Sequence record: OZ346175.1
From: a phage
Reading direction: 5' to 3' (one strand)
DNA length: 64,000 nt
The position numbers and the translations under genes were made by a program. Every line of letters begins with the position of its first letter. The first letter of the stretch is position 1. The notes beneath the pieces are model-generated. The model did no database searches. It was not told the origin of the DNA and saw only the letters and a program-made list of their open reading frames with translations. Below, piece after piece: positions 7,134 to 59,038 of this stretch.

Positions 7134-7661
7134 TCAACTTAGTTTTGCAAACTCTCCGTGGAGTTTAATAGCAGCTTCACAGTAAGCTTTATGGGCTTCT
7201 TCAGGTGTGTCATGGTAACCTAAAAACATCTTCTTACCTTTATAACTTATCTGTGCGACCCACTTACCAGACTTCTTCTTCAGGCTTACACCCTTATAGC
7301 CTGATTTATTGGTGGATAGTTTGCTTTTATTCCAAGCACTTTGGTAGTCATCTGCTTCTCTTAAGTTTACAATCCTGTTATCAAGGGAGTCTCCATTAAT
7401 ATGGTCAATAACACCTTTCGGCAACCTACCATACATGTACAGCCATGCGAGTCTGTGTGCTTTATGTGCTTTCTTGTCAAAATAGATAGTAATCTGCTTA
7501 TGACCAGTTGAGTCAATCTGGATGCTCCCCGCTACCTGTCCTGCGTACTGACTATTAAAAACTTTAACAGCCTTTGAGTCGCCCTCTCTACGAAGCCAAG
7601 TAAAGACCCCTGTTTCGGGGTCATAGTGTAGTAGTTCCTTTAAACGTTCTTTTGTAATCAT
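7134..7661 (-). CDS. HNH homing endonuclease with AP2-type DNA-binding domain
   Basis: HNH region (HINGDSLDNRIVNLR) plus AP2-like segment (YKGVS...GKWVAQI...GYHDTPEEA); free-standing immediately downstream of intron-containing polymerase gene. Confidence 0.8.
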   Translation of the reverse strand: MITKERLKELLHYDPETGVFTWLRREGDSKAVKVFNSQYAGQVAGSIQIDSTGHKQITIYFDKKAHKAHRLAWLYMYGRLPKGVIDHINGDSLDNRIVNLREADDYQSAWNKSKLSTNKSGYKGVSLKKKSGKWVAQISYKGKKMFLGYHDTPEEAHKAYCEAAIKLHGEFAKLS

Positions 7662-7671
7662 TTTGTCACCA

Positions 7672-8228
7672 TTAATGCACTTCCAACCACGATTTACCAA
7701 CCTTTGCTGTACCAGTTACAAGTGTTTCTTTCCTCAAACCTAAGTTTTTTGAAGCTTGTCCATACATCCAGTCAGCAATTGCTTTCATATCATGTGTCAT
7801 ACCCTCTGGACATTCCCAACTATTTTCATCGTGATATGCCAGAAGTAACCTTGCTCCGATAGCTGGTTTTCGAGCATTCAGTTTTGTCAGGCCATCTTCA
7901 CAGGCTTTTCTTGCTGCTAGGTTGATGGCCTCATTCTGAATCTGTGCTTCCGAACTCATCAGGAGGTAGTTCAGTAGTTTATGTGGAGATTTGCACCATA
8001 TCCATGCTCCAGCGACCCTGATATAACCACCTTTAGCAATTGAAGAATTCTTCCCAAAAACCTCTTCCAGAGCCTTTTTAGACGCCTTAAAATCGGCTTC
8101 TAAGCTATCAAGTAACTTCTTAATCTTTGGCAGACGCATATAGTAAGTTTGTTTAGTTAATGCACCTTCCTCTGTAGAAGCTGCCTTAATGGTTTTGGCA
8201 AACTTCTCATCACCTGCACCGAACAATA
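7672..8228 (-). CDS. DNA polymerase, family A (T7 gp5-like), exon 2
   Basis: Begins LFGAGDEK (second half of motif B), contains YHDE motif C, ends ...SWLEVH like family-A polymerases. Confidence 0.9.
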
Positions 8229-8496
8229 CATCTGGTCAATACACTCGCAAGGTGTACCAGTTCTCTTATGAACTTCTCCGCATTTCTACGGAGTGTCGGA
8301 CTATATCACGTAGTAGTAATACTACCGTTGCACTTGGGAATGGTCATTGGCTTACCACCCTACTCTACTCAGTTCATACGTTAAGTATGCTTTTCGATAG
8401 TCTCTGAACGTTCCTCTTAAGAGGCTTCGCTGCTGATTACCATATCTTTACAGACTTAGGCTTCCAGCAATTCACAACGTTTTACATGCGCCACTG
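8229..8496 (-). mobile_element. group I self-splicing intron (ORF-less) in DNA polymerase gene
   Basis: Minus-strand P (aattgctggaag), Q (aatcagcagcg), R (gttcagagacta) and S (gatatagtcc) elements; exon ends in U pairing with gcgcau guide just inside intron; intron ends in G; splicing restores IYALLFGAGDEK. Confidence 0.85.
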
Positions 8497-10639
8497 ACGC
8501 ATAAATGCCATTTTTGGCTTTCTTACGACCTTTTGTAATCTCGTGGAGAAGTTCCTCATCCTGTGTCTCCCTACAACGAACAATATCTTCTTCCTTGTTC
8601 AGACCAAAGTAAATACTGTTCAGTGTATGCGCATCAGTCCCTGTGTAGACTTCATAGAGGTCGTTCTCAGCATCATAACGAAGATACTTGTCAGTTTCTG
8701 GATTAAGGTGCTTATCAAGATGTTTGCAATAATATCTCCCATCTTCTTGCTTGGTAAATTCTACTGACTCTTTACCTTCAGTTACTGCTTTAGTGAACTC
8801 TTTATCACCCATAAAGTTACACAGTAAAACAAGCTGTGCAGAGTTCTGGTCAACAGAAACAATGTTAGTCCCCTCTTCACAAATCCACACTGCCCTCATA
8901 GGTGCTCCATAGACAGCAGCACCAGACGGTACGTTTACAATACCATATTGTGTCATACGTCCAGTTGAAGTACCAAACACCATTGCACCAGCACTAAGGC
9001 GACCATCAGGACGAATCTGGTTCAACCAACCTTTTTCATCATCCTTTGAGTTCTCAATAGTTCTGCGTCGGTGCATCAAAGTATAGTACTTAGCAATCTT
9101 CTGTCCAAGCTCACCTTCAATCGTATCATAAGATGATTCAGTAAGTTTTGGTGAAGTACGGATTAAGCAAGGCTCAAGCAAATCTGTGTACTTCTTCACA
9201 GACCAGTTATGCTCAATGTACTGTACACCTTCATGTTCAACATAACTCAAACCACACCGCTCAACCATTTCCTGCCACTTAGGATGTTTTGTAATCATCT
9301 TTTTATTGTCTTTGAAACGACAAACTTTGACAGGGCGACCATCTGAATCTTTCTTGTAGTTCCAGTCATCTGGAATCCAACCAACTGATTTCAAGTAGTC
9401 TTTAACAACTGCTACCTGAGTCATATGAGAAACTTCAAACTCAATTGGTGTATATGGTGCATCAATCAAACCTGTGTAGCGACTTGACTCAAGTTCAAAG
9501 TGATTGACAACGTGACTGTTATAGTACTTCACAGTCTTGACTGTTTTTACTGGTTTCCAGTCTTTGCATTTTTTGCCAATCTTTGCATTCAACTCGTTGC
9601 AGATTGCACGAGCATCCTTCATCGCTACAAAACCCTCTTTGTACTCTTCACCAGTTACAGAGTTGGTTGGTGTATAGCAATTTCTCTTTTCAATGTTAAA
9701 AATCTTTGTAGTTGGCTTACCAAATGGCTTGATTTCATATGTCTGCATCTCACCATTACGTACCTGCTGACGATACTTTGTCTTAGGGTACTTGGTAATT
9801 CTTTTCAGTCCATCTGCATGACCAAATGCTTCAACATACTCATTCCAAGCTTTTGCAAACTCTTCTCCAGTGACTTTACCTTTGGTCTTAATAGTTGGAG
9901 GTAGATGTGGTTCAACCTCTGAAGCAAGCTCATTAGTCAACTTGTCAAGCTCCTTTACATGGAACTCCATAAGCTCTTTATCAGCTTTCCAACCATTGAT
10001 AGCTTGTTGACTCATCCAGAAAGATGTTTCTTTAGCTCGCATGTAAGTTTCATAAGTGTCTATGCCACACTTCTTAAGCTTGAGATACTCGTTATCAAGT
10101 GCCCGTTTAGTTTTGGCGTTAATACGGATATCTTCTACAACACGAGTGAAGATTTCTGCATTCCACACACCCCAATGCTCAATCTCTGGCTTACGAACAC
10201 CAACACGAGCACCCCATGCAGCCAAGCCATGAGCACCTTTATAACCCTTTGGAGTTGGTCTATCCATCCACTGAACACGAGACTGGATAAGAGAATCCTG
10301 AAAGAAATTACTCCACGGCTTACACTTTGGATTATCAAAGTTCCATAAATCAGGTGCAATGTGATTAAAAACCCACCAGTCATAACCGAGACCGTTATGG
10401 ATGCAAAGACGTTTTGCCTTTAACGCAAATTCAACACCTTCACGTAAGCCACCCTTAATGTACTTGGTATACTTGTGACCGAGGATAGGTTCATCCGTAA
10501 AGACCCATACAGGTGGCTCTTCATCGTCAGATTTATAGTCTGCGAAAGCCATTACGTGCACTTTAGTGAACTCAAGGAGTAAACCATCAGTTTCTGTATC
10601 ACCAACTAAATGTAAGTTTTTAAAATCTACGTTTTCCAT
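8497..10639 (-). CDS. DNA polymerase, family A (T7 gp5-like), exon 1
   Basis: N-terminal 3'-5' exonuclease motif DTETDG, T7 gp5-like blocks, ends in first half of motif B (RKKAKNGIYA); start at MENVDF with GAGGGAG RBS. Confidence 0.9.
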
Positions 10640-10702
10640 TTTTACTCCCTCTAAAATCATTAACCTCATACATTACTGCAAAAAATTATAAAAAGCAAGT
10701 TG

Positions 10703-16507: not shown

Positions 16508-17554
16508 ATGGAGAAGTACACATTAACAAAGCTTCCCGATTCAGTTACACATGTCTTTATTGACTCTGACAGTATTGCCTATAAAGGTGCTTGTGTAGTT
16601 GAGAAAGCAAAATATAAATATGTCAATAAACTCACAGCAGAAGAATCTGATTCGTTTGATAATGCGAAAGATGCTGCAAGATGGTTAGCAGACCAGAGAA
16701 TCCTTGTGGAAGAACTTGGCCTGACATTTGATGAAGATGAATGGGAAAGACAGACTTGGAAAGAAGCTAAGAGTGAAAAAGAAGCTATCATGGCTACTCA
16801 ACAGGTTCTTCAGGAATGGCTTAAGGTTGTTGGTAAAGAGAGAACTTGGGTAGGCTATTTAACAGAGAAAGGTGTGCATAAGCATAAAGACATTAAAGGT
16901 CTTGAGCACCAATATCAAGGTAACCGTAAAGATGCTGTCACACCAACACACTTAGTTGCTTGTCGTGAGTATCTTCTGTCAAGACCAGAGTTCAAACTAA
17001 TTCTTGATGGATTTGAAGCCGACTCTATCGTTATTGCTAAAGCTGAAAAGATGGGTAAAAAGGCTGCCTTAATGAGTATTGATAAAGACCTTCGCCAAGC
17101 TGAAGGGACTTACTGCATTGATATGACCTATGAAAAGTCACCTTTGATTTTCATTGCTGATAACAACGTTGGTGAAATTTGGGATTGCCCAATAAAATCG
17201 ACACCAAAAGCTAAGAAGACAGTTGGGGTAGGTTTTAAATTTCTTTGTTACCAAGCTGTGGCTGGTGATAATGCTGATAATTATTTTGGTTTAAAGGGCG
17301 TTGGTAAGGCTACTGTAATGAAAGCTCTTGAAGGTAAAACCACCTACAAAGAGTGTCTTGATGCAATTTATGAGCTTTATGCTAAGAAAGAGTCATACAC
17401 TTATGTCTCGTGGGATGGTCAAACAATTACCAGAACACCTTTAGAGTTAATGCAGCAACACTTTTTCTTAGCTTATCAGGAAAGAAACAAGAAAGACGAT
17501 TTTACTTTTGATAAGTATGGGTGGACACCAAATGTTAACTCAACAAACTCTTAA
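16508..17554 (+). CDS. 5'-3' exonuclease / flap endonuclease-like protein
   Basis: 348 aa; acidic-cluster N-terminus (HVFIDSDSIAYK) and position next to SSB/primase genes. Confidence 0.55.
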   Translation: MEKYTLTKLPDSVTHVFIDSDSIAYKGACVVEKAKYKYVNKLTAEESDSFDNAKDAARWLADQRILVEELGLTFDEDEWERQTWKEAKSEKEAIMATQQVLQEWLKVVGKERTWVGYLTEKGVHKHKDIKGLEHQYQGNRKDAVTPTHLVACREYLLSRPEFKLILDGFEADSIVIAKAEKMGKKAALMSIDKDLRQAEGTYCIDMTYEKSPLIFIADNNVGEIWDCPIKSTPKAKKTVGVGFKFLCYQAVAGDNADNYFGLKGVGKATVMKALEGKTTYKECLDAIYELYAKKESYTYVSWDGQTITRTPLELMQQHFFLAYQERNKKDDFTFDKYGWTPNVNSTNS

Positions 17555-18023
17555 AGAGTACCTACATTATGACCCCGAAACAGGGGTCTTTACTTGGATT
17601 AAGAAATCTGCTAGACACACAAAAATTGGCTCTGTTGCAGGTACAAACTTAAGAGGGTATACCAGAATTTATTTGTTTGGTAAGGGCTATTATGCACATA
17701 CCCTAGCCGTTCTGTATATGGATGGATACCTACCTGAGTGTGTTGACCATAAAAATCATGTAACACTAGACAATCGCTGGGTAAATCTTAGGGCATGTAC
17801 GTTATCAGAGAACCAATGTAATAGGTTGCTCAATAAGAACAATAAATCAGGTGTTAAAGGTGTGTACTACAAAAAACAGTATGGTAAGTGGTCTACACAG
17901 ATAACTTTTAAGAAGAGGGTCTACTTCTTCGGCAACTATGACACTATTGATGAAGCAGCAGAGGTTGTAAATAGGGAACGTCAACGTTTACACAAAGAGT
18001 TTGCTAATAAAGGTGATGAATGA
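17508..18023 (+). CDS. HNH homing endonuclease with AP2-type domain
   Basis: Paralogous to 7134..7661 (LHYDPETGVFTW..., VDHKNHVTLDNRWVNLR, GVKGVYY...GKWSTQI); likely starts at internal Met. Confidence 0.8.
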   Translation: MISMGGHQMLTQQTLKEYLHYDPETGVFTWIKKSARHTKIGSVAGTNLRGYTRIYLFGKGYYAHTLAVLYMDGYLPECVDHKNHVTLDNRWVNLRACTLSENQCNRLLNKNNKSGVKGVYYKKQYGKWSTQITFKKRVYFFGNYDTIDEAAEVVNRERQRLHKEFANKGDE

Positions 18024-18520
18024 GAAAAATAAAAGGTTTTGGCAATTGCCCTGAATATGGACATTGGGTTTCACTATGTGGTGAAGTTGACCCAGCAAAG
18101 CACTTTGGTTTTGTCTACCTAGTGTACTGCAAAAAGACTGGACAGTACTATTTGGGTAAGAAACAGTTTAACAGTGTGACCAAAAGAAAAGTTGCTGGGA
18201 AGACTCGGAAGAAGATAGTCACTAAGGAAAGTGATTGGATGACTTATGAGACTTCTTCTGAGTATATTAAAAAAGATATTGAGAGTTTTGGAAAAGAATT
18301 TTTTGACTTTTACATTATTCAGACCTACTACACAAAAGGTGGCCTAGCCTATGGTGAAGCAAACCTTCAACATAAATTCGATGTAATGACAAAAAGGATT
18401 GACTCTAAGCTCAGACTCTTCTACAATGCCAATATTGCAGCAATTAAGTTTATCACTAAAGAAACTTATGAAGATGCTGAAAAAAGAATCCATAAGGTCA
18501 TGAAAGCAAATTGTGCTTGA
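18020..18520 (+). CDS. putative GIY-YIG-like endonuclease
   Basis: N-terminal FGFVYLVY...TGQYYLGKK resembles GIY-YIG motif; weak call. Confidence 0.4.
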   Translation: MRKIKGFGNCPEYGHWVSLCGEVDPAKHFGFVYLVYCKKTGQYYLGKKQFNSVTKRKVAGKTRKKIVTKESDWMTYETSSEYIKKDIESFGKEFFDFYIIQTYYTKGGLAYGEANLQHKFDVMTKRIDSKLRLFYNANIAAIKFITKETYEDAEKRIHKVMKANCA

Positions 18521-18526
18521 TAACTA

Positions 18527-18790
18527 TTGAGAGAGAATAAAATGTTTAACAAAAGTAAAGCTGTGAGTCATGTAGCAAAAGTTGACAGCAAGATTGAAGA
18601 ACTTGAGCGCGTTCTTACAAATGCCAGAGAGTCAATAATTAAAGAGGTTGAAGCTGTTGAATCTCAAATGCAGCACCTAATGCTTAAACGTCAAGAGCTA
18701 CGTGAGCATCTAGAATATATTGAAACACGAGAGCTAAAGGTTAACAAATATTTTAAGGAGTCCGAATGTTTAACTCAAGAGAATCAGTAA
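18527..18790 (+). CDS. hypothetical protein
   Basis: 87-aa coiled-coil-like ORF. Confidence 0.4.
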   Translation: MRENKMFNKSKAVSHVAKVDSKIEELERVLTNARESIIKEVEAVESQMQHLMLKRQELREHLEYIETRELKVNKYFKESECLTQENQ

Positions 18791-19521
18791 AAAACTGGAA
18801 CCTTCGTTGTGGAAACACTCAAAAGCAACCTTACAGTGATGAGTATTGGGAATCTTTAAAATCTCAATCTCTGTGTATGCTTGAAGAAGCAAAAGAGCTT
18901 GTAAAAGCAATTGAAGAGAAAGACCCCATTGAGACACTGGATGCTCAGGCAGATTTGCAATATGTTCTTGACGGTTTGATTTACCTGTCACAACATGACC
19001 ATAACGGTGCTATGAAAGCTGTTTGCCATAATAATGACCTGAAATACACAGATGACTATGAAGAGGCTTTAAAACGTCTTGCAGACATTGAAAAGCGTAC
19101 TGGTCAAGAGTGTATTATCAGAATGTCAGTAGTTGATGGTAAAGAGTGGTATGCGATTGTTCGTGCAGCCGATGGGAAGATTATGAAGCAATCAAATCTC
19201 CCTAAAGTACAGCTTGGTGAATACATTGTAGAACTTGAAAGCCAAGAACTTTTTGTGGTAGTATCTGAGACATGCGTTATCTGCAAAGGTATTGTAGGTA
19301 GCTTAAAGGATTTGGGTGTAGATGGTTTTGTAGAAGTTAATCCAATTACCTCTAAAGCAGATAAAGACTTCTGTAAAGAGAACGGACTATGGATTGCAGA
19401 TATTGTCTACTATGATGGTGAGCAGTTCCATGTAACCTCATACCCGAAACTGAATTATGATGCTAATAACCTGAAGTGCTGGTTAAAAGGGGTTGGTTAT
19501 AATGGATTCACAGAACATTAA
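18766..19521 (+). CDS. hypothetical protein
   Basis: 251-aa ORF. Confidence 0.45.
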   Translation: MFNSRESVKNWNLRCGNTQKQPYSDEYWESLKSQSLCMLEEAKELVKAIEEKDPIETLDAQADLQYVLDGLIYLSQHDHNGAMKAVCHNNDLKYTDDYEEALKRLADIEKRTGQECIIRMSVVDGKEWYAIVRAADGKIMKQSNLPKVQLGEYIVELESQELFVVVSETCVICKGIVGSLKDLGVDGFVEVNPITSKADKDFCKENGLWIADIVYYDGEQFHVTSYPKLNYDANNLKCWLKGVGYNGFTEH

Positions 19522-28831: not shown

Positions 28832-28844
28832 ACAGATACTATAA

Positions 28845-28868
28845 GGGAACTGTAAAGGTTCCCTTTTT
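28845..28868 (+). terminator. rho-independent terminator
   Basis: gggaac-loop-gttccc hairpin followed by T-run. Confidence 0.55.
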
Positions 28869-28882: not shown

Positions 28883-29398
28883 ATGTACCTGTCAAATCTG
28901 AAACGTTCTGCTGCAATGTCAGTGTTAAGACTCAGTTTTGAGGAACGTCAAGAGTTCATTGACTCCCACCAATACGACCCTTCTAACTCCAATCACATGA
29001 TTCTCTGGAATCGTGACAGTACTCGTGAAAGAGCACTATTCCGTTACTACCCACATTACACCATAGACAAATTGTATGAATGTTTTGTTGTGAAGAACAC
29101 CATTACAGTACTCAATAAACTTTGCAGATACACAGGTAGTCAATCCTTCACATTAGGCCACCACAAACCCGTTACAAAGGGTGGTGAGCATCACTGTGCA
29201 AACTGGTTTATCCAGACTAAACTTGATAACCAGAAGCAAGGGGATAACCTCCTAAGCACACCTAAGATGACCTATGAAGAGCAAGAGAAATATATCAAAA
29301 ATAATATGCCAGATGTGCTTGACAACAACTATACAGATTTGGCAATATCTCTCCTGTTGAAGTTCGAGACAGTTTATAGGGCAACTTACAATGGCTAA
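28883..29398 (+). CDS. putative HNH endonuclease
   Basis: HNH-like segment LGHHKPVTKGGEHHCANW. Confidence 0.5.
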   Translation: MYLSNLKRSAAMSVLRLSFEERQEFIDSHQYDPSNSNHMILWNRDSTRERALFRYYPHYTIDKLYECFVVKNTITVLNKLCRYTGSQSFTLGHHKPVTKGGEHHCANWFIQTKLDNQKQGDNLLSTPKMTYEEQEKYIKNNMPDVLDNNYTDLAISLLLKFETVYRATYNG

Positions 29399-29669
29399 AG
29401 AGAAGTGGGAGATTTTACCATTAGTCAGTGAAGGCGGTAATGGTTGTGAAATGTACATGATACGTGGGCATGTTCCAGAACCAATTGCACTTGAGATGGT
29501 AAACAACTTTACAGATGGCTCTTACAAAGACTTAGGGGAGCCAAATATAAAGCAGCAATGGGTAAAGCCTGTACCAGACAGCACAGGTAACTGTAGTGTA
29601 CTTTATCACGTTGTAGACCCTGCAAAATGCAAATCTGCAATGGCAGTAACAAACGTAACTTTTGATTGA
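29391..29669 (+). CDS. hypothetical protein
   Basis: 92-aa ORF. Confidence 0.4.
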   Translation: MAKEKWEILPLVSEGGNGCEMYMIRGHVPEPIALEMVNNFTDGSYKDLGEPNIKQQWVKPVPDSTGNCSVLYHVVDPAKCKSAMAVTNVTFD

Positions 29670-29680
29670 GAGAGAAAACT

Positions 29681-30562
29681 ATGAAAACTGTTATTGAAGC
29701 CGTCGTCACCGCTCAAGAGAAATTCTTCCACACAGAAAAATTTAATATCATTCAATTCCCATCTGGAGAGATTGGTGGAAACTTCTCTGAAGATTTTGTT
29801 AAGTTTACTGAGCGTAATGCTGGTAAGATTGATAATGTTATAATTACTGTACAGGGATATGACAAAGATACACTGTTTGCATTAGCTTTGGCTAAGGATG
29901 CCGTTGACAGTCTTGTTCCCCAGAAATCAGCGATGAAAACCGTTGTTTTCGGGTTCTTACCAAATGCTCGATATGACCGCCACATGTTCAAAGGTGATGC
30001 AGCAGCACTGAAAGTCTTTGCCAACCTAGTTAATGCAATGGGTTTTGATGCAGTATGTGCTCTTGACCCTCACAGTAATGTTGCAGAAAACTTATTTAAG
30101 TGCTTTCAAAGCATGAAGCAAAAAGATGTGGCAGTACACTTTGCAAGTGACCCACGCATTGATTTCTTGGTAGCCCCAGATGCAGGTGCAGCTAAGAAGA
30201 CTGAAGATACCGCTAAAGAGGTGGATAAACCGTATATCACAATGTCTAAGGTGCGCAATCTTAAGACTGGAGAAATCACTGGTATGCGAATCCTTGACGA
30301 TGTTGATTTGACCGATAAAACTGTCATGATTCTTGATGATATCTGTGATGGTGGTCGAACCTTCGTAGAGGCAGCTAAACACCTACGTGAAGCAGGTGCA
30401 AAACGTGTGGAACTCTATGTAACTCATGGTATTTTCTCTAAAGGTGTTGAAAACTTGCTTGACAACGGTATTGACCATATCTACACTACAAACACTTTAG
30501 GTGAAGCTAAAGACCGTGGCTTAACACATTACGCCCAAGTTACTGTAGCAACCATTGATTGA
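29681..30562 (+). CDS. prs: ribose-phosphate pyrophosphokinase (PRPP synthetase)-like protein
   Basis: PRPP-binding motif MILDDICDGGRTF and ALDPHS segment; start set at MKTVIEAV; directly upstream of NAMPT. Confidence 0.6.
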   Translation: MKTVIEAVVTAQEKFFHTEKFNIIQFPSGEIGGNFSEDFVKFTERNAGKIDNVIITVQGYDKDTLFALALAKDAVDSLVPQKSAMKTVVFGFLPNARYDRHMFKGDAAALKVFANLVNAMGFDAVCALDPHSNVAENLFKCFQSMKQKDVAVHFASDPRIDFLVAPDAGAAKKTEDTAKEVDKPYITMSKVRNLKTGEITGMRILDDVDLTDKTVMILDDICDGGRTFVEAAKHLREAGAKRVELYVTHGIFSKGVENLLDNGIDHIYTTNTLGEAKDRGLTHYAQVTVATID

Positions 30563-30572
30563 AACTTTATAG

Positions 30573-30594
30573 GGGCTTGAAAGCCCCATTTTGA
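30573..30594 (+). terminator. rho-independent terminator
   Basis: ggggctt-gaa-aagcccc hairpin followed by T-rich tract. Confidence 0.5.
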
Positions 30595-30607
30595 GAGAGA
30601 TTAAAAG

Positions 30608-32389
30608 ATGACTAAATCGCTTTACGCAGTACCAGCAGGTTTAAACGCAGATGCTTACAAATCTGGTCATGTTTACCAGTACCCTAGTGCAACAGAATAC
30701 TTGATGTTCAACCTGACACCACGTAGTGACAAATGGTTTAACAGCCCCTTAGCAATTGATGGTGTAGTAGCTTTTGGTATTCAACGTTTCGTTAAAGATT
30801 ACCTGATAGACCACTGGAACGCCACTTTCTTTGAACGTGATAAAAAAGAAGCAGTTGACGAAATCTTAGAAGTCATGAATGGTGTTCTGGGTAAAGATGC
30901 TATTGGTCGAGAGCATTGGGAAGCACTTCACGATTTAGGCTATCTACCAGTTGAAGTATACGCTGTAGAAGAAGGTACAGTTGTTCCTATGCGTGTTCCA
31001 ATGATTGTCTTCCAGAACACTGTTTCAGGTTTCCATTGGGTAGCAGGTTATCTGGAAGATGCTTTCTCTGCTGAGATTTGGAAGACTTGCACCATTGCAA
31101 CTATTGCATTGCACTACAAACGTATCTGTAAGAAGTGGGCTGACCTTACTTGCGACAATGACTTACATTTACCTTATCAGTGCCATGACTTTGCTATGCG
31201 TGGTATGTCCGGCTTTACCGATGACGCATTTAATGCTGTAGGTCACTTAACCAGCTTTAAAGGAACTGATAGCTTCCCTGCTGTATACACGGCTAAACGC
31301 ATCTATGGACAGTCTTACCCAATTTCTGATATTGGTAGTTCTGTACCAGCCACTGAACACTCTGTAATGTGTGCAAACATTGCTTGGGAAGGTGGTAATG
31401 AATTGATTGAAGAGGAAAGACGCTTTAAAGGTGAGTTGCAAACCTTCCGTCGTTTCTTAACAGAAACTTACCCAACTGGTATTGCAAGTATTGTTTCAGA
31501 TACTTATAACTTCTGGAGAACTGTGTCAGAAATCTTACCAGCACTTCGTAAAGAAATTATGGAACGTGATGGTAAGCTGGTAATTCGCCCTGACTCTGGA
31601 GACCCTGTACATATTGTCACAGGCTATAAAGCAATCCACTTAGAGTGTGCTAAGAAGGCTTATTATGAGCACATAAGCAAGCTGGAAGCTAGTGACACAA
31701 TGTTGAATGCTGTTCTGAACATGAAGCTTGAAAACATCAACTATGGTATTGCTGGATGGCTACTGTCAGAAGGCTACGAAATGGTTGTTGACAGAGAAGA
31801 CTTTGAAGTTGCTGATACAGTGATGTTGAAAAATGCTTATATGGTTGGCTCTGCAAACGTTGTAACACGTCCTGTAGCAGAGATTGATGGAGCTATTAAG
31901 ACCCTGTACAACATCTTCGGAGGGACTATTAACTCTAAAGGGTTTAAGGTACTGGATGAGCACATCGGCCTTATCTATGGTGACTCTATCACGCTGGAAC
32001 GTGCAAACGAAATCCTGAAGCGTCTGTATGAAATGGGTTTTGCAAGCTCTAACGTAGTGTTTGGTGTAGGCTCTTACACTTACCAGTACATGACTCGTGA
32101 CACCTTTGCATTTGCTGTCAAAGCAACTCTTGCAAGCATTGGTGGTAAAGAGATTATGCTTGCAAAAGACCCTAAAACAGATAGTGGTGTTAAGAAATCT
32201 GCCTTTGGTGGTGTAGCACCTATGTGGGATGGTGATAAGCTGAAAGCTGTAGATGGCTATGGATTCCAGAGTTTTGCAGATGTACTTGACCACCAAGCTT
32301 GTGCTTTACGTTTAGTCTTTAGCGACTCTGAGCAGTTCGGTTATACAACTCTTGGAGATATTCGAAATAATATTGACAAGCAGCTTTAA
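30608..32389 (+). CDS. nadV: nicotinamide phosphoribosyltransferase
   Basis: 593 aa; NAMPT-like blocks (ADAYKSGH..QYP; HDFAMRGMSGF...SFKGTDSFPA). Confidence 0.85.
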   Translation: MTKSLYAVPAGLNADAYKSGHVYQYPSATEYLMFNLTPRSDKWFNSPLAIDGVVAFGIQRFVKDYLIDHWNATFFERDKKEAVDEILEVMNGVLGKDAIGREHWEALHDLGYLPVEVYAVEEGTVVPMRVPMIVFQNTVSGFHWVAGYLEDAFSAEIWKTCTIATIALHYKRICKKWADLTCDNDLHLPYQCHDFAMRGMSGFTDDAFNAVGHLTSFKGTDSFPAVYTAKRIYGQSYPISDIGSSVPATEHSVMCANIAWEGGNELIEEERRFKGELQTFRRFLTETYPTGIASIVSDTYNFWRTVSEILPALRKEIMERDGKLVIRPDSGDPVHIVTGYKAIHLECAKKAYYEHISKLEASDTMLNAVLNMKLENINYGIAGWLLSEGYEMVVDREDFEVADTVMLKNAYMVGSANVVTRPVAEIDGAIKTLYNIFGGTINSKGFKVLDEHIGLIYGDSITLERANEILKRLYEMGFASSNVVFGVGSYTYQYMTRDTFAFAVKATLASIGGKEIMLAKDPKTDSGVKKSAFGGVAPMWDGDKLKAVDGYGFQSFADVLDHQACALRLVFSDSEQFGYTTLGDIRNNIDKQL

Positions 32390-32404
32390 AAGTATATGAT
32401 AAGA

Positions 32405-32425
32405 GGCTCCTACGGGAGCCTTTTT
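32405..32425 (+). terminator. rho-independent terminator
   Basis: ggctcc-tacg-ggagcc hairpin followed by T-run. Confidence 0.6.
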
Positions 32426-32442
32426 AATTTCTGGAGAAGATT

Positions 32443-32778
32443 ATGAAAATCAAAGAAATGAACATTAACGTTGTCCTAGAAGAACGTTGGGAGAACATTA
32501 AGAAACCTGAAGATGGTAAAAAGTTCCTTAACAAAATTTTAGTAGCAGCTAAAGAAGAACTGACTGGCAAGATTGCAGCAGCAATCACAATAAAAATCTG
32601 TGTAAAAGGTCTTCCACAACATCACCAATTTGCACTTGACGAGTTTAAAGGAAGCTTCTACAATCCAAACAAACAGATGCTTGAAAGTAACTTTGCAGTG
32701 TCTACAAGTATCGTTCATGACAGAAGCTTTATCCTTTACAAGAATATGAGAGGTGAGTCATGCAAGCATATTGGATAG
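32443..32778 (+). CDS. hypothetical protein
   Basis: 111-aa ORF. Confidence 0.45.
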   Translation: MKIKEMNINVVLEERWENIKKPEDGKKFLNKILVAAKEELTGKIAAAITIKICVKGLPQHHQFALDEFKGSFYNPNKQMLESNFAVSTSIVHDRSFILYKNMRGESCKHIG

Positions 32779-32936
32779 AAATTTTACTGTCACTCGGTAG
32801 TGTAGCAGTCCTTGTTTATCTTCTTTGTAAGTACTTTGCAGAACACAAGAAGTGTGACTACTGTAACGGAGAAGGGTATACAAGAGCAGGTTGTTGCCCT
32901 ATGTGTGGTGGTTCTGGTAAAATGTTTAATAAGTAA
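32760..32936 (+). CDS. hypothetical membrane-anchored zinc-ribbon protein
   Basis: 58-aa ORF (MQAYWIEILLSLGSVAVLVYLL...CDYCNGEGY...CPMCGGSGK); below ORF-track size cut-off. Confidence 0.3.
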   Translation: MQAYWIEILLSLGSVAVLVYLLCKYFAEHKKCDYCNGEGYTRAGCCPMCGGSGKMFNK

Positions 32937-32964
32937 TTTAACAGTAAACTAAGAGGAAAGTATT

Positions 32965-33711
32965 ATGCGCATGGTAAATGACCACGCAGAAGTGATTAAG
33001 AGTTCAACTTCTTTAGAGACGTCTCAAGCACAGATTACAATGACACCTGAGATGTTCAGCCTTTTGAGTTCTGGTGTATACACCTTTAAAGAAAGGGCAG
33101 TGATTCGTGAACTGTCATGTAACGCAGTAGATGCTCAGAAAGAAGCTGGAAAAGAGAACATCCCATTCCATGTGCATTTACCTACTCGTTTTGAGCCTTA
33201 CTTCGAAGTTCGTGATTTTGGAACTGGATTGACTCATGATAAAGTAATGAGTTTGTATCTGAACTATGGGGCTTCTACGAAGAATGACTCCAATGATTAC
33301 ATTGGTGCAATGGGTATCGGCTCAAAATCCCCATTTGCAATTGCTCAGTCATTCACAGTATCTAGCTATGTTGATGGTGTTGTTAATAAGTACTCTGTTT
33401 ACCTTGAGAATGGTATCCCTCAAGTAACTAAGCTTACTACCAACCCAACAAATGAACCCAATGGTTTAGCTGTACGTGTGGCAGTTGCTGACCATCGTAT
33501 TTCAAAGTTCTTTGAAGAGGCTGGTCACGTATACTCATACTTTGCTGTAAAACCAGAAAGTAACATTGTATATGATGATGTATTAGCAGATATGAATGTC
33601 ATTGCCCGTGAAGAGGGTGTTTATGATGCTATGATTCATAAGCAAAGCTGGCGTTCTAGTGGCAACAGGACAGAGTTTAATGTGGTGATGGGTAATATTG
33701 CCACCCAGTGA
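32965..33711 (+). CDS. rIIA: rIIA-like protein, N-terminal GHKL ATPase part
   Basis: GHKL-type motifs (ELSCNAVDAQ; RDFGTGLT; GAMGIGSKS); ends 4 nt into the next ORF, which continues the rIIA-sized product. Confidence 0.55.
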   Translation: MRMVNDHAEVIKSSTSLETSQAQITMTPEMFSLLSSGVYTFKERAVIRELSCNAVDAQKEAGKENIPFHVHLPTRFEPYFEVRDFGTGLTHDKVMSLYLNYGASTKNDSNDYIGAMGIGSKSPFAIAQSFTVSSYVDGVVNKYSVYLENGIPQVTKLTTNPTNEPNGLAVRVAVADHRISKFFEEAGHVYSYFAVKPESNIVYDDVLADMNVIAREEGVYDAMIHKQSWRSSGNRTEFNVVMGNIATQ

Positions 33712-35330
33712 ACATGGAAGCATTACTTGGTGATGATTTCTTCAAAGTCTTGCCAGAGTTTTTCCGTAGGAGCGTAGACCTTGTAAACATCTACATGCCT
33801 ATTGGTTCAGTTGCTATTGCAGCTTCTCGTGAAGCATTGCAGATGAATGACACGACAAAAAATGTTATCATTGAGGCTACTAAAAAGATAACTGAAGCCA
33901 TTACAAAGGATGTTATCAAGAAAGTTAATAGCCAACCTACACTCATGGATGCTGCACAGGCTTATGCTGAGTTACGTTTGAACTCACGAGAGATGTTTAA
34001 TGCTGTGTGTCCAAAGCTAGAGTGGGGTGGCGTTAAGCTTGATTCTCTGGAAGAAGAATTGCTAAACATTCGTCGTGGAATTATCTACGCAGAAGACGGC
34101 TCAGTCATTTACGAACGTGACGGTAAAGGTAATATTAAGGTTGATAGGAACGGGAACAATATCCCTAAAGTAGATTATCTTTATGACCCAGTTGCTTATG
34201 TCAAGTTTAACTCTTTAGAGAGTAAGATTCGTGCAACAGCACTATCCTACACTCAAGAGGCGAGCATGTTCAACATCTTTGGTGCAATGCGCAAAAGCCA
34301 GATTGGACAGTTTTTGTTCGTGATTAATGACCGTCGAAATAAAAATGGCACTGAGAAGACTGTTGGGCGTAACCAAATCTTGCGTGGTGCATGTCGAGAC
34401 TATGCAAGTGAGTCTAGTCTGTTTCACAGATACAATGGTATTGTCTTTGTATTCTCGACTGAAAAAGAGTTAGATGACTTAATCAATCTGCACAAACTTG
34501 ATAAAAGCTTGCTAAAGATTGTGAAAATGTCTGATAAGGAACACCATTACCAGCGTAAAGAAGCTGTAAGAGGTGTTGTAAAACTCTGGAAAGCTGTTCC
34601 AGCAGAAGGTGTAGCCTCCTACAAAGAGGTGTCAGAGGACTTAGACACAATTGAAGAACCTCAGCTTTACATTAAGGCAATTGGTGACACAGTTGATGGC
34701 GAATGTTTTTGCTCATCTCCAGAAGATGTAGCTAAGTCAGTTGCCAATGTCATTGAAAAGACAGTCTATGTTTTCCGAAAAGCAAATTGGAAAAAGATAC
34801 CAGAAGACTGGATTGAAGTAGATGAGAAGCTCTTGAGCAACAGCTTAACTAATGTTCACTGGATTAATCATAACAGGTATATGACACGTATCTATATGAA
34901 TGGTGTCCTAGACCTGACAAGCAGTTGGATTATTGCCAGAAACTTTACGTTCAATAACAGGAAGATTTCTCGTGGCTATTGCTATTCACGGGATACAAAC
35001 AAAACTATCTTCCTAGAAGGTAATGAAGAGGCTGTAGAGGCAATGTTTGGTAAAATCCAGTATGTTGCTGCACCATTTGCATACACTTACACTATTAGTG
35101 TGTTGAAAACTTTGAAAGATTGTCTTGACAACGATACAAAGCTTTACAAGAAAATTAAGAAAGCTGGTGACCGTATGGTTATTAAGGTGACAAACTACCT
35201 TTCAAAAAGAAAACAAGAAAACTTCTTGCTTTCCCATTTAGATTGGAATAAAGTGTCACCCATCGAAGTGAGTAAGTTCTTAGGTTTTGATGTGAAGTGT
35301 GTTCCAGAAGGAACTACAGTTTACGATTAA
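33708..35330 (+). CDS. rIIA: rIIA-like protein, C-terminal part
   Basis: 540-aa ORF starting at GTG 33708 (ATG at 33714) overlapping the upstream stop; followed by rIIB-like gene. Confidence 0.5.
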   Translation: MNMEALLGDDFFKVLPEFFRRSVDLVNIYMPIGSVAIAASREALQMNDTTKNVIIEATKKITEAITKDVIKKVNSQPTLMDAAQAYAELRLNSREMFNAVCPKLEWGGVKLDSLEEELLNIRRGIIYAEDGSVIYERDGKGNIKVDRNGNNIPKVDYLYDPVAYVKFNSLESKIRATALSYTQEASMFNIFGAMRKSQIGQFLFVINDRRNKNGTEKTVGRNQILRGACRDYASESSLFHRYNGIVFVFSTEKELDDLINLHKLDKSLLKIVKMSDKEHHYQRKEAVRGVVKLWKAVPAEGVASYKEVSEDLDTIEEPQLYIKAIGDTVDGECFCSSPEDVAKSVANVIEKTVYVFRKANWKKIPEDWIEVDEKLLSNSLTNVHWINHNRYMTRIYMNGVLDLTSSWIIARNFTFNNRKISRGYCYSRDTNKTIFLEGNEEAVEAMFGKIQYVAAPFAYTYTISVLKTLKDCLDNDTKLYKKIKKAGDRMVIKVTNYLSKRKQENFLLSHLDWNKVSPIEVSKFLGFDVKCVPEGTTVYD

Positions 35331-39837: not shown

Positions 39838-40623
39838 ATGGGTATTGTAAAAATCATCAATGGGGATATCTTCTCAGCATTTGATAAAGGTAAGTTTGAT
39901 ATTATTGGTCACGGTTGTAACTGTATGAACTTAATGGGTGCAGGTATCGCTGATAAGATTTCTAAACTTTACCCAAAAGCATATGAGACCGATACAGAAG
40001 TTTATCTGTATGCAGGTGGTATAAGTCACAAACCCTGTGAAAATTTGCTAGGCAATTTCTCTGTAGCACGTTTAAAACAAGGCCGTATAGCCAATCTTTA
40101 CACTCAGCTTAAGACTGGTAAAGATGCCCGATACAGTGATTTAGAGTCATCTTTGAAGCAACTTAACAGATACTGTGAAGTTAATCAGTTGAAGAAAGTT
40201 GGCTTACCTATGATTGGTGCAGGTATCGGCGGACTAGACCCTCAAGCCGTCACAGTTATCATTAATCAGGTGATGAAGAGTGTAGATGTTTATCTGTATG
40301 TCTACGAAGGAGAGATGTACCACAAGTTACGCTCAGGTTGGAAGAATTACTGTGAACCAGAATACTTTGCAGGTGTAGTAGTGTTCATAGACGACACAGT
40401 TACCCTCTTCAGACGAAGAAAAGGTAAGGTACATCAAAGTAACCCTCCGGTTGAAAAGATGTCTCTAAGTAACGCTCTAGTTACCCACCTGTCGAAGAGC
40501 AATCACAGGATTGCAGTAACATTTGGCAGTGATGCAGATACATATATCTATGCAAGAACTGATGAGGATATCGAGTTAATCTTCTCTTCACCAGAGCTTA
40601 CCTTCTTAGACGCAAAGAACTAA
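39838..40623 (+). CDS. macro-domain (ADP-ribose binding/processing) protein
   Basis: Macro-like motifs IIGHGCNCMNLMGAGIA and GLPMIGAGIGGLD in N-terminal 150 aa, plus about 110-aa C-terminal extension. Confidence 0.55.
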   Translation: MGIVKIINGDIFSAFDKGKFDIIGHGCNCMNLMGAGIADKISKLYPKAYETDTEVYLYAGGISHKPCENLLGNFSVARLKQGRIANLYTQLKTGKDARYSDLESSLKQLNRYCEVNQLKKVGLPMIGAGIGGLDPQAVTVIINQVMKSVDVYLYVYEGEMYHKLRSGWKNYCEPEYFAGVVVFIDDTVTLFRRRKGKVHQSNPPVEKMSLSNALVTHLSKSNHRIAVTFGSDADTYIYARTDEDIELIFSSPELTFLDAKN

Positions 40624-58227: not shown

Positions 58228-58304
58228 CTCTGTTTAGCTCAGCTTGGTAGAGCGTTCCGTTTGGGGCGGTAAGGCCGGAGGTTCAAGTCCTCCAACAGAG
58301 ACCA
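58228..58304 (+). tRNA. tRNA-Pro (anticodon TGG)
   Basis: Hand cloverleaf: acceptor ctctgtt/aacagag, anticodon loop ttTGGgg, T-arm ggagg-ttcaagt-cctcc, CCA encoded. Confidence 0.7.
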
Positions 58305-58311
58305 AATTAAT

Positions 58312-58389
58312 GTTCCAGTAGACAAAATGGTAAAGTCACCACTCTTTCAAAGTGGATATCTGAGGGTTCAAATCCCTTCTGGAACGCCA
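58312..58389 (+). tRNA. tRNA-Glu (anticodon TTC)
   Basis: Acceptor gttccag/ctggaac, anticodon stem ccact/agtgg, loop ctTTCaa, T-loop ttcaaat, CCA encoded. Confidence 0.6.
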
Positions 58390-58396
58390 GTTTTGA

Positions 58397-58469
58397 CAGA
58401 AGACCAATTACAGCAAACTTAATCTTATTCATCTGAAGGTAAATCGGACAAAGAAGAGATTTGGTCTGG
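58397..58469 (+). ncRNA. structured element A (cagaagacc...ggtctgg stem family)
   Basis: 5' cagaagaccaattacagcaa and 3' tggtctgg; stem agacca/tggtct; family member without tRNA-like module. Confidence 0.35.
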
Positions 58470-58480
58470 TCATTAAGAAT

Positions 58481-58557
58481 TGCGGGTATAGAGAAAGGGC
58501 GTCTCACATGTCTCATTAGCATGGTATCGGCAGGTTCGACTCCTGCACCCGCCTCCA
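58481..58557 (+). tRNA. tRNA-Met or Ile2 (anticodon CAT), non-canonical acceptor
   Basis: D-stem gaga/tctc, anticodon stem catgt/gcatg, loop ctCATta, T-arm gcagg-ttcgact-cctgc; acceptor pairing needs one mismatch. Confidence 0.5.
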
Positions 58558-58563
58558 AATTTG

Positions 58564-58624
58564 CAGAAGACCGTATTCAGCAACAAAATACTTTTTTGCG
58601 GATAAAAGAAAAAACACGGTCTGG
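58564..58624 (+). ncRNA. structured element B (cagaagacc...ggtctgg stem family)
   Basis: cagaagaccgtattcagcaa ... cggtctgg; stem agaccg/cggtct (compensatory relative to A). Confidence 0.35.
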
Positions 58625-58635
58625 CAATGTATTAA

Positions 58636-58712
58636 GGTTAGGAAGCACATAAGGTATGTGCGGTCGCCTGTTAAGCGAATGGCACAGGGTTCGAATCCCT
58701 GACTAACCGCCA
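58636..58712 (+). tRNA. tRNA-Asn (anticodon GTT)
   Basis: D-stem gcac/gtgc, anticodon loop ctGTTaa, T-arm caggg-ttcgaat-ccctg, CCA encoded; position 8 is A (atypical). Confidence 0.55.
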
Positions 58713-58720
58713 AATTAAAT

Positions 58721-58808
58721 GTGTCGTTATCCCGTAGATGGTAGCGGTGGGGACTGTAAATCCCTTGTCATTGAGACTCGGTAGGTTCGACTCCTACACG
58801 GCACACCA
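58721..58808 (+). tRNA. tRNA-Tyr (anticodon GTA)
   Basis: 88 nt with long variable arm; anticodon stem gggga/tccct, loop ctGTAaa; T-arm gtagg-ttcgact-cctac; CCA encoded. Confidence 0.7.
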
Positions 58809-58813
58809 ATAAA

Positions 58814-58890
58814 GGCTATGTAGTTTAACTGGAGAAAATACTCCCCTGTCACGGGAGATGATGTGAGTTCAAGTCTCATCGTAGCCGCCA
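58814..58890 (+). tRNA. tRNA-Asp (anticodon GTC)
   Basis: Acceptor ggctatg/cgtagcc, anticodon stem ctccc/gggag, loop ctGTCac, T-loop ttcaagt, CCA encoded. Confidence 0.75.
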
Positions 58891-58951
58891 ATTTTGAGAG
58901 GGCTATTTAGCCCCTCCCTTAAAGAGTTCTTACGAGTATTCTTTAAGGGAG

Positions 58952-59035
58952 CAGAAGACCAAATACAGCAAGAATGTATGAAATTTCAAGCCAATTTAAT
59001 TTTGAAAATTTAAAACTTGGTCTGGCTCAACAAAT
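58952..59035 (+). ncRNA. structured element C (cagaagacc...ggtctgg stem family)
   Basis: cagaagaccaaatacagcaa ... ttggtctgg; stem agaccaa/ttggtct. Confidence 0.35.
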
Positions 59036-59038
59036 TTA

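What the first reader, a model, noticed from the sequence alone, without database searches (positions are those of the whole stretch)
29681..32389. Adjacent PRPP synthetase-like and NAMPT genes: candidate NAD+ salvage / anti-defence module
A phosphoribosyltransferase-type protein with PRPP-binding motif (MILDDICDGGRTF) is directly followed by a clear nicotinamide phosphoribosyltransferase. Phage-encoded NAD+ salvage enzymes are known (KVP40 NadV) and have been proposed to counter NAD+-depleting defence systems. No NMN adenylyltransferase was seen in this window.
Basis: partly seen in the sequence, partly recalled or inferred. Interest (0 to 1): 0.6.

Follow-up and report, generated by a model that had tools for sequence, protein, structure and literature searches.

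The report
Known phage NAD+ rebuilding operon (NARP1)

Summary
Window 29681..30562 (+) encodes a 293-aa PRPP-synthetase-family protein. Window 30608..32389 (+) encodes a 593-aa NAMPT-family protein. They are 45 nt apart, and a strong terminator-like hairpin follows.

The window comes from a Felixounavirus (Felix O1-like coliphage). The two proteins are 291/293 and 585/593 identical to Bas63_0079 and Bas63_0080 of phage JohannRWettstein (Bas63). NAD+ reconstitution pathway 1 (NARP1) was discovered on that operon (Osterman et al.).

The published mechanism is not classical salvage. Adps pyrophosphorylates ADP-ribose with ATP to give ADPR-PP. Namat then joins ADPR-PP to nicotinamide to give NAD+ directly. 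That explains why no NMN adenylyltransferase is present. I found none in 39 ORFs scanned, and none is annotated in Bas63.

All published signature residues that can be checked by sequence are present:
- the Adps catalytic Lys (K190) and the DDICD loop;
- the Namat catalytic core;
- the Namat adenine-clamp motif GSYTYQYMTRD and the K42-W43 loop.

Verdict: already known, low interest.

Side observations:
- a Macro-domain gene 7.4 kb downstream, homologous to both Adpp and T4 AdfM;
- an 83-aa insertion in Namat found only in Ounavirinae;
- a mosaic 5' half of adps.

The parts
29681..30562 (+). adps: ADP-ribose pyrophosphokinase (ADPR + ATP -> ADPR-PP + AMP), 293 aa, a PRPP-synthetase-like fold
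   Evidence: ORF. TIGR01251 scores 139 bits, but every Prs equivalog model falls far below its cutoff. phrog_619. 291/293 identical to Bas63_0079. Residues F26, R97, H131, D167, K190, R192 and D219-D220-I221-C222-D223 align with ICP1 Adps F18, R87, H121, D161, K185 and D212-D216.
30572..30587 (+). Small GC-rich hairpin (GGGGCU-UGAA-AGCCCC, then AUUUUG) in the 45-nt adps-namat spacer. Possibly an attenuator or RNA-stability element; its role is inferred only.
   Evidence: Sequence. RNA fold -12.6 kcal/mol, z = -2.6. It was not called as a terminator by the scan.
30608..32389 (+). namat: nicotinamide ADP-ribose transferase (ADPR-PP + nicotinamide -> NAD+ + PPi), 593 aa, a NAMPT-like fold
   Evidence: ORF. 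NF006629 470 bits. phrog_448. 585/593 identical to Bas63_0080. The best solved relatives are 9w5w/9w5x (E 1e-128); their residue numbering matches that of the SpbetaL1 Namat structures of Lan et al., so I take them to be those entries. The catalytic core is conserved: D15, Y17, F195, R198, D221, H251, R327, D329, G458, D459.
30716..30754 (+). Namat selectivity-clamp loop (SCL), aa 37-49, with K42-W43 as the adenine-stacking pair
   Evidence: Alignment to 9w5x R40. Lan et al. state that when Lys or Tyr is the third loop residue, the fourth residue does the stacking, 'e.g. Bas63 Namat'. Positions.
32069..32101 (+). Namat selectivity-clamp helix motif GSYTYQYMTRD (aa 488-498). It matches the Namat-specific consensus GS-X-phi-X-phi-X-phi-TRD.
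   Evidence: Regex match. Motif definition from PMC12774641. Alignment to SpbetaL1 G390-D400.
31637..31885 (+). Insertion of about 83 aa within Namat (aa 344-426), found only in Ounavirinae and absent from SpbetaL1 Namat and from NAMPT. Function unknown.
   Evidence: Two-stretch alignment to 9w5w/9w5x with the query gap at 344-426. tblastn of the segment hits only 254 Ounavirinae-type records. No Pfam or PDB match.
32401..32434 (+). Intrinsic-terminator-like hairpin and T tract that closes the transcription unit after namat
   Evidence: 10-bp stem with 5 GC pairs plus a T run. Fold -17.2 kcal/mol, z = -3.1.
39838..40623 (+). Macro-domain protein (261 aa), 7.4 kb downstream. Not part of the core operon; a possible accessory (Adpp-like) or an independent anti-DarT factor (AdfM-like).
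   Evidence: Pfam Macro PF01661, 33 bits, E 6.5e-8. 27% identical to Vibrio phage Gary Adpp. 34% identical to T4 Tk.4/AdfM. All three fall in phrog_335.

Best explanation
The two genes are the NARP1 operon of a Felixounavirus.

Many bacterial defence systems (SIR2-HerA/Nezha, type I Thoeris, DSR1, DSR2, SEFIR) cleave NAD+ into ADP-ribose and nicotinamide. When that happens, the pathway runs in two steps:
1. Adps, a PRPP-synthetase-like hexameric enzyme, transfers the beta-gamma pyrophosphate of ATP onto the 1'' hydroxyl of ADP-ribose. This gives ADPR-pyrophosphate.
2. Namat, a NAMPT-like dimeric enzyme with an added adenine-binding clamp, displaces the pyrophosphate with nicotinamide. This regenerates NAD+ directly.

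No NMN intermediate and no adenylyltransferase are needed. The pathway runs only when ADPR accumulates.

Shown experimentally in the literature for proteins 99% identical to these: the anti-defence phenotype, NAD+ restoration, and the in vivo appearance of ADPR-PP. Shown in vitro only for homologues (SpbetaL1, ICP1, DyoEdafos, Gary, P. foliorum): the individual enzyme reactions. Inferred here: that this window's copy behaves the same way, from near-identity and conserved signature residues.
For: 1. Identity. 291/293 aa and 585/593 aa to Bas63_0079/0080, with the same gene order and spacing. DNA is 97% identical to Bas63 and 99% to vB_EcoM_LNA1.
2. Published experiments on Bas63 (bioRxiv 10.1101/2024.02.11.579819). 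Deleting genes 79-80 costs about 20-fold in plaques on SIR2-HerA cells and deepens NAD+ depletion. The phenotype persists in a host lacking pncC and nadR. ADPR-PP (m/z 720.010) appears only with wild-type phage plus the defence system.
3. Adps signature. K190 aligns with ICP1 K185, SpbetaL1 K162 and human PRPS1 K194. R97, H131, D167, D219, D220 and D223 align with ICP1 R87, H121, D161, D212, D213 and D216. The protein passes only the Prs subfamily model and fails every Prs equivalog cutoff.
4. Namat signature. The catalytic core is conserved. The Namat-specific motif GSYTYQYMTRD and the K42-W43 clamp loop are present. The closest solved structures are 9w5w/9w5x, which I take to be SpbetaL1 Namat, at E 1e-128, against 1e-40 for human NAMPT.
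5. No NMNAT in the window or in the annotated Bas63 genome.
Against: Nothing contradicts it. The caveats are:
- The Bas63 enzymes themselves were not purified ('did not purify well'), so in vitro chemistry rests on homologues that are 25-45% identical.
- Two ICP1 Adps ligand-contact residues are not conserved: F92 corresponds to M102 (with F103 adjacent), and F223 corresponds to E230.
- The Ounavirinae Namat carries an uncharacterised 83-aa insertion.
- Namat retains some PRPP-to-NMN activity in vitro, so a minor salvage contribution is not excluded.
Confidence: 0.95

Rival explanations
1. Classical salvage. Gene 1 is a true PRPP synthetase that supplies PRPP. Gene 2 is a NAMPT that makes NMN. 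A host enzyme or an unseen phage NMNAT completes NAD+ synthesis, as in KVP40 (NARP2).
For: Database names and profile hits say Prs and NAMPT/NAPRT. [quoted passage not shown]
Against: Bas63 counter-defence is independent of host pncC and nadR. Purified SpbetaL1 Adps gave no product in the PRPP-synthetase test but made ADPR-PP from ADPR and ATP. Namat prefers ADPR-PP when both donors are offered. The protein fails all Prs equivalog cutoffs. No NMNAT is present. [quoted passage not shown]
Confidence: 0.03
2. A general nucleotide-metabolism booster. The pair sits in the nucleotide-metabolism block and raises PRPP and pyridine nucleotide supply for phage replication, whatever defence systems the host carries.
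For: The genes lie downstream of nrdA/B/D/G in the same + strand block. Td, DHFR and dNMP kinase are also in the window.
Against: In the published work, NARP1 phages gave no excess NAD+ in cells without a defence system, and ADPR-PP was absent without SIR2-HerA. The substrate ADPR is scarce unless NAD+ is being cleaved.
Confidence: 0.02

Closest known systems
NARP1 of Escherichia phage JohannRWettstein (Bas63), genes bas63_0079-0080 (Osterman et al., 'Phages reconstitute NAD+ to counter bacterial immunity')
   Same: Same genus (Felixounavirus), same gene order and 45-nt spacing, and proteins 99% identical. Effectively the same element.
   Different: 2 and 8 amino-acid substitutions, none at mapped catalytic or clamp residues. 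The window lacks the small gene bas63_0081 that follows namat in Bas63.
NARP1 of Bacillus phage SpbetaL1 (the biochemical and structural reference; the Namat structures appear to be PDB 9w5w/9w5x) and Adps of Vibrio phage ICP1
   Same: Same two-enzyme pathway. The Adps catalytic Lys and DDICD loop are conserved, as are the Namat catalytic core and the GSX-phi-X-phi-X-phi-TRD clamp motif.
   Different: The sequences are only distantly related: Adps is 31% identical to ICP1 Adps. The Namat here is about 100 aa longer, with an 83-aa and a roughly 15-aa insertion. Its clamp loop uses K42-W43 instead of a single Arg. ICP1 F92 and F223 are not conserved.
NARP1-AP of Vibrio phage Gary (adps-adpp-namat; Osterman et al. 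2026 preprint)
   Same: Same Adps and Namat core. This phage also encodes a phrog_335 Macro-domain protein homologous to Adpp.
   Different: Here the Macro gene is not in the operon. It lies 7.4 kb (about 14 genes) downstream, carries an extra C-terminal region of about 100 aa, and is slightly closer to T4 Tk.4/AdfM (34%) than to Adpp (27%).
NARP2 of Vibrio phage KVP40 (Nampt/NadV plus Nmnat-Nudix NatV)
   Same: A phage NAD+-restoring counter-defence that uses a NAMPT-family enzyme.
   Different: NARP2 starts from PRPP, makes NMN and needs a phage Nmnat. Here there is an Adps and no Nmnat, and the NAMPT-family enzyme carries the Namat clamp motif.
Cellular ribose-phosphate diphosphokinase (Prs/PRPS1) and NAMPT
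   Same: The same folds and the same catalytic Lys/Arg and Asp residues.
   Different: In Adps the acceptor is ADP-ribose, not ribose-5-phosphate. In Namat the donor is ADPR-PP, not PRPP. Prs equivalog HMM cutoffs are not reached.

Membership tests
NARP1 (Adps + Namat) | A Prs-family (Adps-clade) gene next to a NAMPT-family (Namat-clade) gene, within 10 genes in the published definition | tested here: met
   The two genes are adjacent on the same strand with a 45-nt gap. They are 99% identical to the Bas63 proteins that were used as queries to define the clades.
NARP1 (Adps + Namat) | Adps catalytic lysine on the beta-hairpin (ICP1 K185, SpbetaL1 K162, B. subtilis Prs K197, human PRPS1 K194) | tested here: met
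   K190 (with R192) aligns to ICP1 K185 and to human PRPS1 K194/R196. Positions.
NARP1 (Adps + Namat) | Adps acceptor residues and PP loop (ICP1 F18, R87, F92, H121, D161, D212, D213, D216, loop C215-S220, F221, F223) | tested here: met
   F26, R97, H131, D167, D219, D220, D223, C222 and F228 are conserved. There are two exceptions: F92 corresponds to M102 (F103 adjacent), and F223 corresponds to E230. Loop residues A218/A219/S220 correspond to G225/R226/T227; these are reported as backbone contacts.
NARP1 (Adps + Namat) | Adps lacks the C-terminal alpha11-alpha12 filament and regulatory module of canonical PRPS | tested here: inconclusive
   The protein is 293 aa against about 315-326 aa for PRPS, and the alignments to PRPS1 end near residue 289 of PRPS1. 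No reliable structure model was obtained.
NARP1 (Adps + Namat) | Namat catalytic core shared with NAMPT (SpbetaL1 D13, Y15, F189, R192, D215, H245, R306, D308, G360, D361) | tested here: met
   D15, Y17, F195, R198, D221, H251, R327, D329, G458 and D459.
NARP1 (Adps + Namat) | Namat-specific selectivity-clamp helix motif GS-X-phi1-X-phi2-X-phi3-TRD, with aromatic X | tested here: met
   GSYTYQYMTRD at aa 488-498 (motif). Phi3 is Met here, whereas Asn or Val is the more usual residue.
NARP1 (Adps + Namat) | Namat selectivity-clamp loop with a stacking residue: third residue Arg, or Lys/Tyr followed by the stacking residue | tested here: met
   S40-D41-K42-W43. This is the arrangement described for Bas63 Namat.
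NARP1 (Adps + Namat) | Enzyme activities (ADPR + ATP -> ADPR-PP; ADPR-PP + nicotinamide -> NAD+) and rescue from NAD+-depleting defence | not testable with these tools
   Published in vivo for the 99%-identical Bas63 operon and in vitro for homologues.
NARP2 (Nampt + Nmnat, KVP40 type) | A phage-encoded NMN adenylyltransferase in the same genome and no Adps | tested here: not met
   No CTP_transf_like, NadR or Nudix domain in the 39 ORFs scanned. None is annotated in Bas63. Adps is present.
NARP1-AP (Adps + Adpp + Namat) | A Macro-domain ADPR-1''-phosphate phosphatase within two genes of the NARP1 core | tested here: not met
   The neighbours within several genes on each side have no Macro domain. 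The only Macro gene, 39838..40623, is 7.4 kb away.
RyDEP-extended NARP1 (DyoEdafos type) | A RyR-domain (PF02026) glycosidase inserted in the NARP1 locus | tested here: not met
   No PF02026 hit in any scanned ORF.
Canonical ribose-phosphate diphosphokinase (Prs) | Reaches an NCBIfam equivalog cutoff for Prs | tested here: not met
   Examples are 114 bits against a cutoff of 296 (NF002095) and 81 against 438 (NF002844). The subfamily model NF002320 also fails, at 102 against 297. Only the broad subfamily model TIGR01251 passes, at 139 against 113.

The most novel reading that the evidence does not exclude
Felixounaviruses may run an extended NARP1 'in trans'. In this reading the distal Macro-domain protein (39838..40623) acts as an ADPR-1''-phosphate phosphatase, or as another enzyme that releases ADPR. 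It is in phrog_335, the same family as the NARP1-AP phosphatase Adpp. It would feed Adps-Namat and so give resistance to aRES-type defence, even though the published survey would score these phages as plain NARP1 because it looked only two genes either side of the operon. A second, weaker possibility is that the Ounavirinae-specific 83-aa insertion in Namat adds a regulatory or interaction function.
Probability: 0.15. Interest if true: 0.4.

Novelty: already known. Interest (0 to 1): 0.12.

Why it matters
NARP1 is a broad-spectrum counter-defence. One operon neutralises several unrelated NAD+-depleting immune systems, so recognising it helps predict the host range of a therapeutic or model phage.

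For this window the practical value is correct annotation. Automated pipelines name these genes 'ribose-phosphate pyrophosphokinase' and 'nicotinamide/nicotinate phosphoribosyltransferase'. That naming suggests the wrong chemistry and an apparently missing NMNAT.

No new biology follows from the core finding. The only open leads are peripheral: the Macro-domain gene, the Namat insertion and the mosaic adps 5' half.

Tried and rejected
1. A single-sequence AlphaFold2 model of Namat, meant to place the 83-aa insertion, was useless (mean pLDDT 33, pTM 0.21). No fold search was attempted on it.
2. I searched the insertion (aa 338-430) and the C-terminal 105 aa of the Macro protein against Pfam at E up to 10. 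I also searched the insertion against PDB sequences. Nothing credible came back.
3. I asked whether the two small ORFs upstream (28883..29398 and 29391..29669) are accessory NARP1 genes, because they share the terminator-bounded block with adps and namat. I rejected this. The 92-aa ORF occurs only in Ounavirinae. The 171-aa ORF is weakly HNH-like and occurs unlinked to NARP1 in other phage groups. Phage L27 has NARP1 without either ORF.
4. I looked for NARP1 accessory domains (Macro, RyR) in the immediate neighbours and found none.
5. I looked in the aRES preprint for evidence that Felixounaviruses resist aRES. Bas63, 'Felix' and BASEL are not mentioned.
6. Two family-search calls failed on a wrong reading frame and were repeated. 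One literature query failed on a too-short term.
7. I did not run the large homologue searches (search for homologous proteins, the search of protein representatives, contig scans). The verdict did not depend on them.
Full report
**What is there**

The window has two co-directional ORFs at exactly the reported coordinates. The first runs from 29681 to 30562 (293 aa from the ATG; an in-frame TTG lies 15 nt upstream). The second runs from 30608 to 32389 (593 aa).

The first ORF matches:
- Pfam Pribosyltran and Pribosyl_synth;
- NCBIfam TIGR01251 'ribose-phosphate diphosphokinase', 139 bits against a cutoff of 113;
- PHROG 619 at E 1e-99.

The second ORF matches:
- Pfam NAPRTase and NAMPT_N;
- NCBIfam NF006629, 470 bits;
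- PHROG 448 at E 3e-202.

The quoted motif MILDDICDGGRTF is at residues 216-228.

**Where the window comes from**

Megablast of 29000-33000 against the phage collection finds 259 records, almost all Felix O1-like phages of Escherichia, Salmonella, Shigella and Citrobacter. The best matches are 99.0% (vB_EcoM_LNA1), 98.8% (Andreotti) and 97.0% (JohannRWettstein, which is BASEL phage Bas63).

In Bas63 the two genes are bas63_0079 ('ribose-phosphate pyrophosphokinase') and bas63_0080 ('nicotinamide phosphoribosyltransferase'), with identical lengths and spacing. At protein level the window's copies are 291/293 and 585/593 identical to them.

**What it is**

Bas63 genes 79-80 are the operon on which NAD+ reconstitution pathway 1 (NARP1) was discovered (Osterman et al., bioRxiv 10.1101/2024.02.11.579819). 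The authors began from the same reading as the first-stage reader, Prs plus Nampt making NMN, and showed it to be wrong.

- Deleting the two genes costs Bas63 about 20-fold in plaques on SIR2-HerA cells and deepens NAD+ depletion.
- The wild-type phage still overcomes defence in an E. coli strain lacking pncC and nadR, so host NMN-to-NAD+ routes are not needed.
- Untargeted mass spectrometry found ADPR-pyrophosphate (m/z 720.010) only when both the wild-type phage and the defence system were present.
- The purified SpbetaL1 homologue of gene 79 gave no product in the PRPP-synthetase test, but made ADPR-PP from ADPR and ATP.
- The homologue of gene 80 joined ADPR-PP and nicotinamide into NAD+ and preferred ADPR-PP over PRPP.

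The enzymes were named Adps and Namat. NARP1 was found in 859 phage genomes (4.3% of those surveyed). It counters type I Thoeris, DSR1, DSR2, SIR2-HerA and SEFIR, but not type II Thoeris, which does not deplete NAD+.

**Signature residues checked here**

Two structural papers give features that can be tested by sequence.

For Adps (Liu et al., PMC13586617, ICP1 enzyme) I aligned the window protein with ICP1 and Gary Adps and mapped the residues.
- ICP1 F18, R87, H121, D161, K185, D212, D213, I214, C215, D216 and F221 correspond to F26, R97, H131, D167, K190, D219, D220, I221, C222, D223 and F228.
- K190 and R192 also align with human PRPS1 K194 and R196.
- Two contact residues differ: ICP1 F92 corresponds to M102 (with F103 next to it), and F223 corresponds to E230.
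- The protein fails every Prs equivalog cutoff, for example 114 against 296. That fits a divergent sub-clade of the Prs family.

For Namat (Lan et al., PMC12774641), the best solved relatives are 9w5w/9w5x (E 1e-128, against 1e-40 for human NAMPT). PDB labels these entries only 'Nicotinamide phosphoribosyltransferase'. Their residue numbering matches that of the SpbetaL1 Namat structures of Lan et al., so I take them to be those entries.
- The catalytic core is intact: D15, Y17, F195, R198, D221, H251, R327, D329, G458, D459.
- The Namat-specific clamp-helix motif GS-X-phi-X-phi-X-phi-TRD is present as GSYTYQYMTRD (aa 488-498).
- The clamp loop has K42-W43, the arrangement the paper describes for Bas63.

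**The missing NMNAT**

I scanned 39 different ORFs with Pfam: the neighbours, plus the ORFs of about 140 aa or more without an obvious function. None has an NMNAT, NadR, Nudix or RyR domain. The full Bas63 annotation lists none either.

This is expected. NARP1 needs no adenylyltransferase, and the published survey found no phage with both NARP1 and NARP2.

**Local anatomy**

Terminator-like hairpins at 28843-28865 and 32401-32424 bracket a block of four ORFs: a 171-aa weakly HNH-like protein, a 92-aa protein, adps and namat. A small GC hairpin followed by AUUUUG sits in the adps-namat spacer.

The two upstream ORFs are not part of NARP1. The 92-aa ORF is confined to Ounavirinae. The 171-aa ORF occurs unlinked to NARP1 elsewhere. 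Phage L27 has adps-namat without either.

**Comparison with known systems**

This is a member of NARP1, in practice the type example. It is not:
- NARP2, because there is no Nmnat and an Adps is present;
- NARP1-AP, because no Macro gene lies within two genes of the operon;
- the RyDEP-extended form, because there is no RyR domain.

**Side observations**

1. *Macro-domain protein.* ORF 39838..40623 (261 aa; Bas63_0095 'putative phosphatase') has a Macro domain. Its N-terminal 155 aa are 27% identical to Gary Adpp, the NARP1-AP phosphatase. They are 34% identical to T4 Tk.4, recently named AdfM, an anti-DarTG2 factor. Adpp and Tk.4 are themselves 35% identical, and all three fall in phrog_335. 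Sequence alone therefore cannot say which activity this protein has. The aRES study examined only two genes either side of NARP1, so a distal Adpp-like gene would have been missed. This is the only lead with some novelty.

2. *Namat insertion.* The Namat here is about 100 aa longer than SpbetaL1 Namat, with an 83-aa insertion (aa 344-426) found only in Ounavirinae. It has no recognisable family, and the structural paper does not discuss it.

3. *Mosaic adps.* Against phage L27, DNA identity is 59-67% over the first 300 nt of adps and rises to about 98% by nt 600. Namat is 98% identical at protein level. All mapped Adps catalytic residues are unchanged. Only 56 records carry an Adps at least 90% identical to this one, although 204 records share at least 90% DNA identity across the 4-kb region.

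**Verdict**

The finding is real. The system is already known and experimentally characterised in a phage that is 99% identical at these loci. Interest is low.

Noticed in passing
window 39838-40623 (+): A 261-aa Macro-domain protein (PF01661). It is homologous both to the NARP1-AP phosphatase Adpp of Vibrio phage Gary (27% identity) and to T4 Tk.4/AdfM, an anti-DarTG2 factor (34%). All three are in phrog_335. It has an extra C-terminal region of about 100 aa with no family match. It could supply ADPR to NARP1 in trans, or it could be an independent DNA de-ADP-ribosylase.
   Followed up: partly
window 31637-31885 (+), Namat aa 344-426; also about aa 258-272: An 83-aa insertion, plus a second of about 15 aa, relative to SpbetaL1 Namat and NAMPT. 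tblastn finds it only in 254 Ounavirinae-type records, at 46-55% identity in the Mooglevirus-like phages. No Pfam or PDB match. Not discussed in the Namat structure paper.
   Followed up: partly
window 29681-30280 (+), 5' two-thirds of adps: A mosaic or hypervariable segment. Against phage L27, DNA identity is 59-67% over the first 300 nt and rises to about 98% by nt 600. Adps is 79.6% identical at protein level, while the adjacent Namat is 98%. Catalytic residues are unchanged. Most Felixounaviruses carry the other allele.
   Followed up: partly
window 28883-29669 (+): Two small ORFs (171 aa, weakly HNH-like, phrog_3500; and 92 aa, phrog_4726) sit between an upstream terminator-like hairpin (28843-28865) and adps. 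Phage L27 lacks both, so this is an indel cassette rather than part of NARP1.
   Followed up: partly
window 33703-33704; ORFs 32965-33711 and 33708-35330 (+): rIIA is split into two ORFs by a 1-nt deletion relative to Bas63 (window ATTGCC-ACCCAG, Bas63 ATTGCCTACCCTG). This is either a sequencing error or a genuine rIIA frameshift.
   Followed up: partly
window 8276-8559 (-); flanking ORFs 8456-10669, 7672-8226 and 7134-7700 (-): A group I intron (Rfam RF00028, 64 bits, E 6e-14) interrupts the family-A DNA polymerase gene. An HNH_3+AP2 homing-endonuclease ORF lies just downstream. Bas63 has an uninterrupted polymerase gene; several relatives annotate two polymerase pieces.
   Followed up: partly
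window 17508-18023 and 18020-18520 (+): Two more free-standing homing-endonuclease-like ORFs (HNH_3+AP2 and SegE-type GIY-YIG) in the replication and nucleotide-metabolism block.
   Followed up: no
window 32390-32442 compared with L001 6391-6793: The small gene bas63_0081 (114 aa, hypothetical), which follows namat in Bas63, is absent from the window. Here the terminator is followed directly by the homologue of bas63_0082.
   Followed up: no
window 58228-63553 (+): An array of 24 tRNA genes detected by Rfam, interspersed with small ORFs including DUF7338, DUF7217 and a weak HNH hit. This is typical of Felixounavirus.
   Followed up: no
window 18766-19521 (+): A 251-aa ORF with a PRA-PH/MazG-like pyrophosphohydrolase domain (PF01503, E 8e-6), another nucleotide-metabolism gene of unknown role.
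   Followed up: no
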